Origin: Balanoglossus misakiensis
Taxonomy: Eukaryota > Animalia > Hemichordata
Reading direction: 5' to 3'
Length of the DNA: 64,000 nt
Assembly (NCBI GenBank): GCA_040954595.2
Contig: CM082592.2
Coordinates: forward strand, 2,419,362-2,483,361
Part shown: in pieces, positions 49,835 through 64,000 of the stretch
How positions within the stretch are numbered: the stretch's first letter is position 1
Layout: every line of letters starts with the position of its first letter
Made by a program: the position numbers and the translations under genes
The notes under the pieces: model-generated
Told to the model about the DNA's origin: nothing
The model's database searches: none
The model's input: only the letters and a program-made list of their open reading frames with translations

Positions 49835-52800
49835 CTCTCTCTCTCTCTCTCCTTTCAAATTTACATTGACTATTAGTAAAAAATTAGAATCTGCAAATTA
49901 CAGGAAACTTCCTCCCATGCCTGAAGGAATTTAAAAAATAAATGTCTCTATCTTCCTCCTTTTCTTTCTTCTTCTCTGTCTCTGTCTCTCTGTCTGTCTG
50001 TCTCTCTCTCTCACTATCTCTGTCTCTCTCTGTCTGTCTGTCTCTCTCTCTCTCTCTCTCTATCCCTCTTTCATATCCAGGAGGTATGTATATACCCTAC
50101 TATTATCATTTTAGTCGAGGAATTAGTTGTTGATTTCCTTTCAAATTTACTCTAGCTATTATTAAAATTTAGAATCTGCGAATTACCGGAAATTTCCTCC
50201 CATGCCTGAAGGAATTTAAAAAATAAATGTTTCTCTCTTCCTCCTTTTCTTTCTTCTTCTCTCCCTCATTGTCTCTCTCTCTCTCTCTCTCTCTCTCTCT
50301 CTCTCTCTCACTATCTCTGTCTCTATCTCTCTCTCTCTGTCTATCCCTCTTTCATATCCAGGAGGTATGTATATACCCTACTTTTATCATTTTAGTCCAG
50401 GAATTAGTTGTTGATTTCCTTTCAAATTTACTCTAGCTATTACTAAAAATTAAGAATCTGCGAATTACCGTAAATTTCCTCTCATGCCTGAAGGAATTTA
50501 AAAAATAAATGTCTCTCTCCCTTATTGTCTTTCTTTCTCTCTCTCTCACTCACTATCTCTGTCTCTCTGTCTCTCTCTCTCTCTCTCTCTCTCTTTCATA
50601 TCCAGCTGGTGAGTCTATAAATGTACCCAACTTTTATCATTTTAGTCGAGGAATTAGTTGTTGATTTCCTTTAAAATTTACATTAGCAATTACTAAAAAT
50701 TTAGATTCTGCGAATTACCGGATATTTCGTCCCATGCCTGAAGGAATTTAAAAAATAAATGTCTCTCTCTTCCTCATTTTCCCTCTTCTTCTCGCTCTCT
50801 CTCGCTCTCTCTCTCTCTCATCTATACAGCGTGTAAGTATAATATACCGTACTTTTATCATTTTAGTCGAGGAATTAATTGTTGATTTCCTTTATAATTA
50901 ACATTTAGCTATTACTAAAAATGTAGATTTTGCGAATTACCGGATATTTCCTCTCATGCCTAAAGGAATTTAAAAAATAAATGTCTCTATCTTCCTCCTT
51001 TTCTTTCTTCTTCTCTTCCTCTCCCTCATTGTCTCTCTCTCTCTCTCACTATCTCTGTCTCTATCCCTCTCTCTCTGTCTATCCCTCTTTCATATCCAGG
51101 AGGTATGTATATACCCTACTTTTATCATTTTAGTCCAGGAATTAGTTGTTGATTTCCTTTCAAATTTACTCTAGCTATTACTAAAAATTAAGAATCTGCG
51201 AATTACCGTAAATTTCCTCTCATGCCTGAAGGAATTTAAAAAATAAATGTCTCTCTCCCTTATTGTCTTTCTTTCTCTCTCTCTCACTCACTATCCCTCT
51301 CTCTCTGTCTATCCCTCTTTCATATCCAGGAGGTATGTATATACCCTACTTTTATCATTTTAGTCCAGGAATTAGTTATTGATTTCCTTTCAAATTTACT
51401 CTAGCTATTACTAAAAATTAAGAATCTGCGAATTACCGTAAATTTCCTCTCATGCCTGAAGGAATTTAAAAAATAAATGTCTCTCTCTTCCTCCTTTTTC
51501 TTTCTTCTTCTCTGTCTCTGTCTCTCTATCTGTCTCCCTCTCTCTGATATCCAGCTGGTGAGTCTATACATGTACCATACTTTTATCATTTTAGTCCAGG
51601 AATTAGTTATTGATTTCCTTTCAAATTTACTCTAGCTATTACTAAAAATTAAGAATCTGCGAATTACCGTAAATTTCCTCTCATGCCTGAAGGAATTTAA
51701 AAAATAAATGTCTCTCTCCCTTATTGTCTTTCTTTCTCTCTCTCTCACTCACTATCTCTGTCTCTCTGTCTCTCTCTCTCTCTCTCTCTCTCTCTCTCTC
51801 TCTCTCTCTCTCTCTTTCATATCCAGCTGGTGAGTCTATAAATGTACCCAACTTTTATCATTTTAGTCGAGGAATTAGTTGTTGATTTCCTTTAAAATTT
51901 ACATTAGCAATTACTAAAAATTTAGATTCTGCGAATTACCGGATATTTCGTCCCATGCCTGAAGGAATTTAAAAAATAAATGTCTCTCTCTTCCTCATTT
52001 TCCCTCTTCTTCTCGCTCTCTCTCGCTCTCTCTCTCTCTCATCTATACAGCGTGTAAGTATAATATACCGTACTTTTATCATTTTAGTCGAGGAATTAAT
52101 TGTTGATTTCCTTTATAATTAACATTTAGCTATTACTAAAAATGTAGATTCTGCGAATTACCGGATATTTCCTCTCATGCCTAAAGGAATTTAAAAAATA
52201 AATGTCTCTATCTTCCTCCTTTTCTTTCTTCTTCTCTTCCTCTCCCTCATTGTCTCTCTCTCTCTCTCTCTCTCTCACTATCTCTGTCTCTATCCCTCTC
52301 TCTCTGTCTATCCCTCTTTCATATCCAGGAGGTATGTATATACCCTACTTTTATCATTTTAGTCCAGGAATTAGTTGTTGATTTCCTTTCAAATTTACTC
52401 TAGCTATTACTAAAAATTAAGAATCTGAGAATTACCGTAAATTTCCTCTCATGCCTGAAGGAATTTAAAAAATAAATGTCTCTCTCCCTTATTGTCTTTC
52501 TTTCTCTCTCTCTCACTCACTATCTCTGTCTCTCTGTCTCTCTCTCTCTCTCTCTCTCTCTCTCTCTCTTTCATATCCAGCTGGTGAGTCTATAAATGTA
52601 CCCAACTTTTATCATTTTAGTCGAGGAATTAGTTGTTGATTTCCTTTAAAATTTACATTAGCAATTACTAAAAATTTAGATTCTGCGAATTACCGGATAT
52701 TTCGTCCCATGCCTGAAGGAATTTAAAAAATAAATGTCTCTCTCTTCCTCATTTTCCCTCTTCTTCTCGCTCTCTCTCGCTCTCTCTCTCTCTCATCTAT

Positions 52801-61800: not shown

Positions 61801-64000
61801 ATCTGCAAATTACAGGAAAGTTCCTCCCATGCCTAAAGGAATTTAAAAAATAAATGTTTCTCTCTTCCTCCTTTTCTTTCTTCTTTTCTGTCTCTGTCTC
61901 TCTGTCTGTCTCTCTCTCTCTCTCTCTCTCTGATATCCAGTCGGTGAGTCTATACATGTGCCATACTTTTATCATTTTAGTCCAGGAATTAGTTGATGAT
62001 CTCCTTTCAAATTTACATGGCTTTTACTAATAATTTACAATCTGCAAATTACAGGAAAGTTCCTCCCATGCCTGAAGGAATTTAAAAAATAAATGTCTCT
62101 CTCCCTCATTGTCTCTCTCTCTTTATCACTATCTCTCTTTCTCTATCTATCCCTCTTTCATATGCAGGAGGTATGTATATACCCTACTTTTTTCATTTTA
62201 GTCGAGGAATTAATTGTTGGTTTCCTTTCAAATTTTCATTGGCTTTTACTAATAATTTAGAATCTCCGAATTACCGGAAATTTCCTCCCATGCCTGAAGG
62301 AATTAAAAAATTAAATGTCTCTCTCACTCATTGTTTTTCTCTCTCTCACTCCCACTATCTCTGTCTGTCTGTCTGTCTGTCTCTCTCTCTCTCTCTATCT
62401 CTCTCACTATCTCTGTCTCTCTCTCTCTCTCTCTCGCTCTCTCACACAAACACACAGATGCAAAAGGTATGTATATACCCTACTTTTCTCATTTTAGTCG
62501 AGGAAATAGTTGTTGATTTCCTTTCAAATTTACATTAGCTATTACTAAAACTTCAGAATCTGCGAATTACTGGACATTTCGTCCCATGCCTGAAGGAATT
62601 TAAAAAATAAATGTCTCTCGCTTCCTCCCTTTCACCCGTCTTCTCTGTCTCTGTCTGTCTGTCTGTCTGTCTGTCTGTCTGTCTCTCTCTCTCTCTATCT
62701 GATATCCAGTTGGTGAGTCGATACATGTACCATAATTTTATCATTTTCGTTGAGGAATTAGTTGTTGATTTCTTTTCAAATTTACATTAGCTATTACTAA
62801 AAATTTAGAATCTGCGAATTACCGGAAATTTCGTCCCATGCCTGAAGGAATTTAAAAAATAAATGTCTCTCTCTCCCTAATTGTCTCTCTCTCTCTATCT
62901 CTCTTTCATATCCAGGAGGTATGTATATTCCCTACTTTTATCATTTTAGTCGAGGAATTAGTTGTTGATTTCCTTTCAAATTTACATTAGCTATTACTAA
63001 AAATTTAGAATCTGCGAATTACCGGAAATTTTCTATCATGCCTGAATGAATTTAAAAAATAAATGTCTCTCTCTCCCTCATTATCTCTCTCTCTATCACT
63101 CTCTCTCTTTTTCTCTTTCTCTCTCTCTCTCTCTCTCTGAGTCTCTCTCTCTCTCTCTCTCTCTCTCTCTCTCTCTCTCTCTCTCTCTCTCTCTCTCTCT
63201 CTCTCTCTCTCTCTCTATCTCTCTTTCATATCCAGGAGGTATGTATATTCCCTACTTTTACCATTTTAGTAGAGGAATTAGTTGTTGATTTCCTTTCAAA
63301 TTTACATTAGCTATTACTAAAAATTTAGAATCTGCGAATTACCCGAAATTTCCTCTCATGCCTGAAGGAATTTAAAAAATAAATGTCTCTCTCTTCCTCC
63401 TTTTTCTTTCTTCTTCTCTGTCTCTGTCTGTCTGTCTCTGTGTCTCTCTCTCTCTCTCCCTCTCTCTCTCTCTCTCTTTCTCTCTCACTATCTCTCTCTC
63501 TCTCTCTCTCTCGCTCTCTCTCACACACACAGATACAAAGGGTATGTATATACCCTACTTTTACCATTTTAGTAGAGGAATTAGTTGTTGATTTCTTTTC
63601 AAATTTACATTAGCTATTACTAAAAATTTAGAATCTGCGAATTATCGGAAATTTCGTCCCATGCCTGAAGGAATTAAAAAAATAAATGTCTCTCTTGACT
63701 CCCTCCTTCTCCCTCTTTCCCTGTTTTTGTCTCTGTCTGTCTGTCTGTTTTTCTGTCTCTCTCTCTCTCATCTATACAGCGTGTAAGTATAATATACCCT
63801 ACTTTTATCATTTTAGTCGAGGAATTAGTTGTTGATTTCCTTTCAAATTTACATTGGCTATTACTAAAAATTTAGAATCTGTGAATTACCGGAAATTTCC
63901 TCCCATGCCTGAAGGAATTTAAAAAATAAATGTCTCTCTCTTCCTCCTTTTTCTTTCTTCTTCTCTATCTCTGTCTCTCTCTCTCTCTCTCTCTCTCTCT
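49835..64000 (+). repeat. Complex tandem array (>=55 monomers, 200-460 bp): ~160-bp conserved core + variable (CT)n tract + YAG / 3- or 9-nt slot / GT. Candidate microexon array; continues beyond the window
   Basis: Core tacttttatcattttagt...catgcctgaaggaatttaaaaaataaatg recurs throughout. Slots counted: TCG x16, GAG x15, CTG x9 (one with a dead donor), CGT x5, TTG x5, CTT x1, 9-nt x4. The repeat call is certain; the exon call is inference. Confidence 0.95.

What the first reader, a model, noticed from the sequence alone, without database searches (positions are those of the whole stretch)
50081..63782. A 'satellite' built from ~55 single-codon (3-nt) and 9-nt microexon cassettes: candidate micro-exon gene
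Seen: each monomer has a long, nearly AG-free (CT)n polypyrimidine tract, then YAG, then exactly 3 or 9 nt, then a consensus donor. Examples: tccag|GAG|gtatgt (50081), tccag|CTG|gtgagt (50606), tacag|CGT|gtaagt (50830), tccag|CTT|gtgagt (53568), tccag|TCG|gtgagt (53799), tccag|TTG|gtgagt (55046), tgcag|GAG|gtatgt (55780), cacag|ATACAAATG|gtatgt (59137), cacag|ATGCAAAAG|gtatgt (59503, 62458), tctag|TCG|gtgagt (60196), cacag|ATACAAAGG|gtatgt (63533). 54 of 55 slots keep both AG and GT. Divergent monomer classes use three different top-consensus donors (GTATGT, GTGAGT, GTAAGT), and slot length is always a multiple of 3. Concatenated, phase 1 gives stops (CGT followed by GAG makes TGA) and phase 2 gives stops (CTG followed by ATAC makes TGA). 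Phase 0 is fully open: EELREELLRELRELLSLEE(L)LSSESSSLSSERLEEL-IQM-MQK-LLSSSSSSSSE-MQK-LEE-IQR-R. Established: 3-nt microexons exist in bilaterians (SRRM3/4-eMIC programme), and schistosome micro-exon genes use runs of symmetric tiny exons to diversify proteins. Inference: this may be a gene region spelling a low-complexity E/L/S/R peptide about one codon per ~250 bp, in which any skipping pattern keeps the frame. Repeat maskers and RNA-seq aligners would miss it. The monomers are not independent, so the effective evidence is about five divergent classes, not 55 observations.
Basis: partly seen in the sequence, partly recalled or inferred. Interest (0 to 1): 0.92.

Follow-up and report, generated by a model that had tools for sequence, protein, structure and literature searches.

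The report
One-codon exon array in acorn worm
A 14-kb stretch that looks like satellite DNA, in what is likely an acorn worm, consists of 55 near-identical intron-shaped units separated by three- or nine-base slots between textbook splice signals, and it likely spells part of a protein one amino acid at a time, although no RNA was available to show the splicing.

Summary
There are 55 slots (51 of 3 nt, 4 of 9 nt), each behind a 48-291-nt pyrimidine tract and YAG; 54 have a consensus donor; only phase 0 is open. New support: (1) the 9-nt class arose from the Glu class by losing the old AG and gaining one exactly 6 nt upstream; (2) slot bases are the most variable part of the unit while the flanking AG/GT stay put; (3) random placement of the 31 observed changes kept the architecture in 0-0.25% of simulations; (4) a 2-nt slot at 49583 plus a candidate ATG exon ending in phase 1 would give phase 0. 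Units are reshuffled by crossovers inside the intron core. Against: no RNA run exists; AG/GT retention is not above the homogenised core by raw count; the upstream exon's donor is weak; the neighbourhood holds gene fragments; the 3' end lies outside the window. Best reading (0.65): a live gene segment of codon-sized exons. Closest precedent: truffle nank genes. This scan noted similar arrays before in fungi, protists and unnamed eukaryotes; my searches found none in print for an animal.

The parts
50081..63782 (+). Tandem array of 55 slot-plus-intron cassettes (189 slot bases in 13.7 kb); continues beyond the window end
49583..49584 (+). 2-nt slot (AAG acceptor, GTGAGT donor) behind a CT tract in the first, degenerate unit; would convert phase 1 to phase 0; could also act as a zero-nt AG|GT site
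   Evidence: function inferred
48445..48507 (+). Candidate start exon: T-rich acceptor(s) at 48437/48445, ATG at 48456 in a good context, 52 coding bases (phase 1), weak donor; 17 hydrophilic codons, no signal-peptide-like stretch
   Evidence: inferred, donor matches U1 consensus at only 5 of 9 places and missed the cut-off of the scan; no homologue
50081..63238 (+). Class A: 15 GAG (Glu) slots with GTATGT donor, 4 of them with a TGCAG acceptor (55780, 57481, 58239, 62168)
50606..62712 (+). Class B: 31 CTG/TTG/CTT/TCG (Leu, Ser) slots, 30 with GTGAGT donor
50830..63782 (+). Class C: 5 CGT (Arg) slots with GTAAGT donor, the best U1 match paired with the weakest exon end (-1 T)
   Evidence: compensation is my inference from general 5' splice-site rules
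59137..63541 (+). Class D: four 9-nt slots (59137, 59503, 62458, 63533) derived from the TGCAG variant of class A: old AG changed to AA, new CAG made 6 nt upstream
54774..54776 (+). The one slot with a broken donor (TTGAGT)
54556..54575 (+). Junction of a unit that lost tract, slot and donor together
47596..47601 (+). GTGAGT donor, possible end of an untranslated first exon
   Evidence: speculative

Best explanation
The repeat is a head-to-tail array of 55 or more cassettes, each an intron-shaped unit of about 230 bases plus a 3- or 9-base slot, that is reshuffled by crossovers inside the shared intron core and is likely the live 5' coding part of a gene in which each slot is spliced in as a one-codon (or three-codon) exon. 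Shown: the anatomy, the single open phase, mosaic cores, slot hypervariability and one in-frame acceptor replacement. Inferred: exons of 3 nt are too short for exon definition, so each short intron would be defined across its own length, with U1 pairing to the strong intronic +3..+6 donor bases and U2AF binding the long CU tract; introns would be removed one by one, each step adding a codon. Inferred: translation would start at 48456, pass the 2-nt exon into phase 0 and give a cytoplasmic N-terminal low-complexity segment (Glu/Leu/Arg-rich, then Ser-rich) in front of domains that lie beyond the window. Because every slot is 3n and phase 0, unequal crossover (shown) and exon skipping (untested; the CU tracts are potential PTB sites) would change length and order of this segment without breaking the frame. 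Speculative: a variable interaction or spacer region of a recognition-type protein, by analogy with fungal nank genes.
For: 55 of 55 slots are 3n after the first YAG of the tract end, 54 of 55 with GT-R-W-GT donors. Class D acceptor turnover: AG lost and a new CAG gained 6 nt upstream on the same network edge. Between classes the slot bases differ at 0.50-1.00 per site, the intron bases -16..-7 at 0.21-0.52, the core at 0.09-0.13, the AG/GT at 0-0.008 among classes A, B, C. Slot heterozygosity 0.54 exceeds every 3-column block of the core (maximum 0.31, mean 0.11). Minimum changes: 10 on 3 slot bases (4.4 expected, P 0.014), 2 on A,G,G,T,+5G (7.3 expected, P 0.024). Spreading the 31 changes at random over the 22 sites left at most 1 of 16 haplotypes broken in 0 of 100,000 runs (strict donor) and 245 of 100,000 (GT only). 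Core AGs are lost freely (kept in 32-51 of 55). Mosaic cores: 61 of 78 pairs of diagnostic columns fail the four-gamete test. 52 coding bases + 2 = phase 0, the only open phase. Pattern is strand-specific and core copies occur nowhere else in the window. Codon-sized exon runs are spliced in truffle nank genes (as cited).
Against: No spliced read was seen. By raw count the splice dinucleotides are not better kept than the homogenised core (39 of 113 core dinucleotides kept in at least 54 of 55; allele-count test P 0.27). Effective evidence is about four classes and one acceptor shift, the alignment is anchored on the donor, and the region was picked from a very large scan because of this pattern. 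The candidate start exon has a weak donor, stronger donors lie nearby, and a phase match has a 1-in-3 chance. Only 11 of 55 units have a YTNAY branch-point match at -45..-15. One donor is broken. The neighbourhood holds apparent gene fragments, and a second exon-intron-like tandem array at 13.4-15.7 kb carries good splice signals yet only 2 of 15 units are 3n, so splice-shaped repeats need not be coding here. Helix amphipathicity of the slot order is only marginal (P 0.014-0.17 over 10 tests).
Confidence: 0.65

Rival explanations
1. Fossil cassette: a once-spliced intron-plus-exon unit (or a duplicated fragment of such a gene) now turns over as a satellite; the signals persist because copies are young and homogenised, and nothing is translated today.
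For: Gene fragments nearby (MCT exon without the rest of the gene, INTS1-like 3' piece with an apparent frameshift, SLC22-like 3' half); a broken donor and a deleted slot side by side at 54.5-54.8 kb; raw AG/GT retention no better than a third of core dinucleotides; a non-3n splice-shaped array in the same window; weak upstream donor.
Against: Only 1 of 55 units is broken although cores differ by 6-13%; recent within-class changes still fall on slot bases (7 slot changes within classes B and D, none a stop). This rival still concedes that the architecture was once functional.
Confidence: 0.2
2. Spliced but not coding: the units are stepping stones of recursive-type splicing or tiny exons of a 5' UTR, long intron (for example of the MCT gene whose first exon lies at 22.8 kb on the same strand) or lncRNA.
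For: The rest of the MCT gene is not in the window, so the array could lie in a long same-strand intron; 17 of 55 slots, and the 2-nt slot, have a second AG abutting the donor, which allows zero-nt use.
Against: 38 of 55 slots have no AG abutting the donor; the first YAG always leaves 3 or 9 bases; the acceptor shift was exactly 6 nt; one phase is fully open. Recursive sites are AG|GU without intervening bases in introns over 10 kb, not every 230 bases.
Confidence: 0.07
3. Pick-one cassette: each transcript takes one or a few slots (mutually exclusive choice of a residue at one position) rather than a serial run.
For: All slots are interchangeable in phase 0; slot codons are diversified.
Against: High redundancy (16 TCG, 15 GAG) makes little sense for a choice; introns of about 230 nt have full donor and acceptor, with no spacing that would force exclusion.
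Confidence: 0.04
4. Chance: an ordinary CT-rich satellite whose monomer happens to look like an intron.
For: CT microsatellites are common, the scan is huge, and copies are not independent.
Against: Three different consensus donors, an in-frame acceptor replacement, a further degenerate unit with its own AG and GTGAGT, variability peaking exactly between AG and GT, simulation P at most 0.0025.
Confidence: 0.04

Closest known systems
Codon-sized mini-exons of the Tuber melanosporum nank (NACHT-ankyrin) genes (Iotti et al. 2012, PMID 22289772, not held; seen only as cited in PMC4986451 and PMC13449251, passages)
   Same: Tens of codon-sized exons in one gene, frame-neutral, proposed as a diversity generator.
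   Different: Fungal; splicing was shown there; host domains known. Here an animal, 55 or more slots, near-identical paralogous introns that read as satellite, host domains unknown, splicing unproven.
Schistosoma micro-exon genes (MEGs) (10.1101/2023.06.21.545858, passages)
   Same: Runs of tiny, mostly 3n exons in an animal gene.
   Different: MEGs have 10-20 exons, mostly 15 bp, introns of 0.1-5 kb and an N-terminal signal peptide, and are described as specific to Schistosomatidae. Here 51 of 55 are 3 nt, introns are copies of one unit, and the candidate start has no hydrophobic stretch.
SRRM3/4 (eMIC)-dependent neural microexons (10.1101/2024.09.17.613571 and PMC10250204, passages); single 3-bp exons such as Drosophila hth micro-Ex8 (PMC7392893, abstract and outline)
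   Same: 3-nt size class, strong donors, long UC-rich tract.
   Different: These are isolated exons in conserved genes, 74-79% with UGC before the AG; here UGC precedes 4 of 55 slots and the exons form a continuous tandem run.
Zero-nucleotide recursive splice sites (PMC13149111, passages)
   Same: Acceptor directly followed by a donor after a strong tract; stepwise intron removal.
   Different: No bases between AG and GU and sparse placement in very long introns; here 3 or 9 variable bases every 230 nt.
Plant 1-nt microexons of APC11 and VPS55 (PMC8831610, passages)
   Same: Exons shorter than a codon are real and keep GTRAGT donors, as the 2-nt slot does.
   Different: Single conserved exons, no array.

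Membership tests
Codon-sized mini-exon arrays (Tuber nank type) | Tens of consecutive codon-sized exons in one gene | tested here: met
   Met at DNA level: 51 3-nt and 4 9-nt slots in series
Codon-sized mini-exon arrays (Tuber nank type) | Mini-exons found in transcripts and alternatively spliced | not testable with these tools
   No RNA holder listed
Codon-sized mini-exon arrays (Tuber nank type) | Host gene is a NACHT-ankyrin NLR | not testable with these tools
   3' part lies beyond the window and no genome is held; candidate start exon has no homologue
Schistosoma MEG | Most exons tiny and multiples of 3 | tested here: met
   55 of 55 slots 3n
Schistosoma MEG | N-terminal signal peptide | tested here: inconclusive
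   Candidate start exon is hydrophilic by inspection, but it may not be the true start
Schistosoma MEG | 10-20 exons, mostly 15 bp, in a schistosome | tested here: not met
   55 or more slots, mostly 3 nt; neighbour gene's only hit is Ptychodera flava, 78%
SRRM3/4-dependent microexons | Very short exon with strong 5' splice site | tested here: met
   54 of 55 donors GTGAGT, GTATGT or GTAAGT
SRRM3/4-dependent microexons | UGC between branch point and AG in most members | tested here: not met
   4 of 55 within 20 nt against 74-79%; the paper notes UGC is not strictly required
SRRM3/4-dependent microexons | Neural-specific, SRRM3/4-dependent inclusion | not testable with these tools
   No RNA
Zero-nt recursive splice sites | AG immediately followed by GU | tested here: not met
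   0 of 55 for the first YAG; a second AG abuts the donor in 17 of 55
Zero-nt recursive splice sites | Position inside an intron over 10 kb | tested here: inconclusive
   MCT exon at 22.8 kb has no further exons in the window
Ordinary satellite DNA | Head-to-tail copies under concerted evolution | tested here: met
   Cores 87-94% alike, mosaic, 61 of 78 four-gamete failures
Ordinary satellite DNA | Variation not organised around splice signals | tested here: not met
   Variability peaks on the 3 bases between AG and GT
Ordinary satellite DNA | Many loci or very high copy number in the genome | not testable with these tools
   No genome held; no copy elsewhere in the window

The most novel reading that the evidence does not exclude
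A deuterostome animal writes a protein segment of 60 or more residues one codon per exon, with the exons carried on an actively recombining intron satellite: DNA crossovers reorder and renumber the codons between alleles and exon skipping varies them between transcripts, always in frame. It would be a codon-resolution diversity generator hidden inside what repeat maskers remove, and the first such array in an animal that my searches could find.
Probability: 0.4. Interest if true: 0.87.

Novelty: new variant of a known kind. Interest (0 to 1): 0.72.

Why it matters
If spliced, this is an extreme gene structure for an animal (1.4% coding, 55 or more consecutive exons of 3-9 nt) that annotation pipelines would mask as satellite, so such genes may be systematically missed. 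It offers a natural test bed for how the spliceosome handles consecutive exons too short for exon definition, a captured example of in-frame splice-site turnover, and a direct link between satellite-type recombination and protein variation. The principle is known from truffle nank genes and this scan has noted it in other eukaryotes, so it is an extension to a new kingdom and scale, not a new category.

Tried and rejected
RNA evidence: no RNA holder listed. The three runs laid on 39.5-49.5 kb behave as genomic DNA of another individual or close relative; the small run showed no exon-specific cover or splice joints among the rows shown. No read-level data on the array itself were obtained, so copy number elsewhere and allelic variation stay open. 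Host gene: candidate start exon gave no hit (4 candidates, none at E<=10; no usable hit); the profile search of cluster representatives never ran because the queue was full. SLC22-like piece: no hit, identified instead through solved structures. No exact monomer match in metagenome contigs, no Rfam match in 46-64 kb, no look-alike in earlier scan notes. A minus-strand reading was rejected: no 3-nt slot pattern there. Insertion of the slots into the MCT transcript was considered (its exon also ends in phase 1) and judged unlikely because it would split a transmembrane helix (inference from P0001). The deleted unit was not counted as support: any deletion there removes both sites, which are 3 nt apart. 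Amphipathic periodicity is only marginal. A possible 1-nt slot near 49810 has a poor donor and was set aside; if used it would void the phase argument. The search for long multi-unit duplications at 96% identity printed no rows. Literature searches for such an array in an animal: 0 papers; 3, none on this by listing; 1; 0; 3, single exons; 7; top 10 of 917, none naming Ptychodera; listings only. No supplementary files were opened; Iotti et al. 2012 was not held, so details of nank intron paralogy are unknown to me.
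Full report
Setting. No whole genome is held. A neighbouring exon at 22768-23013 is 78% identical to monocarboxylate transporter 13-like of Ptychodera flava, the only hit among 22 candidates, so the organism is likely an acorn worm (inference from one gene). Three coded runs were listed, none on record as RNA; laid on 39.5-49.5 kb, two cover all 30 bins with many fixed differences, as DNA of another individual or close relative would.

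Observation. The array holds 55 slots from 50081 to 63782: TCG 16, GAG 15, CTG 9, TTG 5, CGT 5, CTT 1 and four of 9 nt; donors are GTGAGT 30, GTATGT 19, GTAAGT 5 and one broken TTGAGT. Each slot follows a pyrimidine tract of 48-291 nt and YAG; the tracts hold 2 AG in 5,289 nt where about 11.5 are expected, both in a GAG context. Introns are 197-450 nt, median 233 (which parsed 54 of 55). Phase 0 is open; phases 1 and 2 contain TGA. The 54 intact slots give 62 residues: Ser 16, Glu 15, Leu 14, Arg 6, Gln 4, Met 3, Ile 2, Lys 2. The pattern occurs 50 times on the + strand, never on the - strand, and once in 98.8 kb of background; a 17-base form matched 39 times against 0 in 100 shuffles, which only restates that this is a repeat. 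The core has no copy elsewhere in the window except the degenerate first unit at 49848-49940. The array runs off the window end.

Is it more than one lucky monomer? The units fall into four classes and 16 distinct slot neighbourhoods. Three results bear on selection. First, acceptor turnover: the 9-nt class derives from the TGCAG variant of the Glu class; on that network edge the old AG became AA and a new CAG arose exactly 6 nt upstream (CATATGCAG|GAG versus CAG|ATGCAAAAG). Second, variability is centred on the slot: between classes slot bases differ at 0.50-1.00 per site, nearby intron bases at 0.21-0.52, the core at 0.09-0.13, and AG/GT at 0-0.008 among classes A-C; slot heterozygosity (0.54) exceeds every three-column block of the core (maximum 0.31). 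Minimum-spanning counts give 10 changes on the slot (4.4 expected, P 0.014) and 2 on A, G, G, T, +5G (7.3 expected, P 0.024). Third, placing the 31 observed changes at random over the 22 sites left at most one broken haplotype in 0 of 100,000 runs with a strict donor and 245 of 100,000 with GT only. All three donor changes (+3, +4) stay within consensus, and the weakest exon end (CGT) carries the best donor (compensation is my inference). Limits: the alignment is anchored on the donor, mutation is assumed uniform, and the locus was chosen for this pattern.

Frame link upstream. A degenerate first unit has a 2-nt slot at 49583-49584 before GTGAGT. A candidate exon with a T-rich acceptor and an ATG at 48456 ends after 52 coding bases, in phase 1; 52 + 2 gives phase 0, the only open phase. 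This is suggestive only: its donor is weak and missed the cut-off of my scan, stronger donors lie at 47596, 47714, 48018 and 49184, and the match has a one-in-three chance. The 17 codons are hydrophilic and found no homologue.

How the array changes. Thirteen diagnostic core columns show two core types and many single-crossover mosaics; 61 of 78 column pairs fail the four-gamete test. Crossovers inside the core move whole tract-slot-donor modules and cannot break the frame. One unit near 54565 lost its slot with both sites, and the next has the broken donor.

Mechanism (inferred). Simultaneous U1 and U2 assembly across very short exons is thought to be sterically hindered, with strong donors driving recognition (PMC10250204, passages). 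Introns of about 230 nt with strong intronic donor bases and long CU tracts fit intron-by-intron removal, each step adding a codon. Branch points are unclear: 46 of 55 units have a YTNAY whose A lies only 8 nt from the slot, and 11 of 55 have one at -45..-15. UGC precedes 4 of 55 slots against 74-79% in SRRM4-dependent sets (10.1101/2024.09.17.613571, passages), so eMIC control is not indicated; PTB binding to CU tracts is a recalled possibility. The product would be a cytoplasmic Glu/Leu/Arg-rich then Ser-rich N-terminal segment; amphipathic periodicity is marginal (P 0.014-0.17, 10 tests). Its role as a variable interaction or spacer region is by analogy only.

Results against. No transcript evidence exists. 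The neighbourhood looks fragmentary: the MCT gene has only residues 1-83 in the window, an INTS1-like 3' piece changes frame (weak Pfam hit E 0.0067, below cut-off), and the SLC22-like gene (E 4.7e-5 to OCT2) showed no 5' exons by my motif scan (weak test). A second tandem array at 13.4-15.7 kb has good splice signals but only 2 of 15 exon-like units are 3n: splice-shaped repeats here need not be coding, although this also shows that 3n length is not automatic.

Comparison with what is known. [quoted passage not shown] Schistosome MEGs have 10-20 exons, mostly 15 bp, and a signal peptide. Single 3-bp exons are known in animals (PMC7392893, abstract) and 1-nt exons with GTRAGT donors in plants (PMC8831610, passages). 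Recursive sites have no bases between AG and GU (PMC13149111, passages). Searches (listings) showed no tandem one-codon array in an animal; subscription journals are largely missing from the library. Earlier notes of this scan describe similar arrays of 6-30 one-codon exons in fungi, protists and unnamed eukaryotes, two with RNA or cDNA-like support, one with support for only the first two exons (unchecked AI notes, not counted as evidence).

Verdict. Observation confirmed; live coding array 0.65, fossil 0.20, spliced non-coding 0.07, pick-one 0.04, chance 0.04. It works like the truffle nank mini-exon system; membership cannot be claimed.

Noticed in passing
window 13382-15731 (+): Tandem array of exon-intron-like units (156-bp period; exon-like parts 63-123 nt, 77 nt in 9 of 15, built from 14-nt subrepeats) with YAG acceptors and GTATGT donors; only 2 of 15 are multiples of 3, so probably non-coding or dead.
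   Followed up: partly
window 22768-23011 (+): MCT13-like first coding exon, 78% to Ptychodera flava, phase-1 donor; the rest of the gene is not in the window: orphan exon or an intron over 41 kb.
   Followed up: partly
window 25690-26484 (+): Two exons resembling the INTS1 C-terminus, with a frame change in the first (weak Pfam INTS1_R4 hit).
   Followed up: partly
window 39900-42700 (-): 3' half of an SLC22-like transporter; 5' exons not found by a motif scan, so the array might lie in an antisense intron of this gene.
   Followed up: partly
window 35100-38300 (-): Multi-exon gene with TPR-like helical pieces by eye; no Pfam hit.
   Followed up: no
window 28760-29080 and 31796-32240 (-): Two paralogous ORFs with signal-peptide-like starts; the longer one has no Pfam hit and is not in the protein collection by exact sequence.
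   Followed up: no
window 11036-13294: Two further tandem repeats (165-bp and 224-bp periods) with acceptor-like pyrimidine runs, directly before the 156-bp array.
   Followed up: no
window 50081-63782: Donor-to-core spacing differs between classes by 3 and 6 nt although intronic; probably micro-duplications, unexplained.
   Followed up: no
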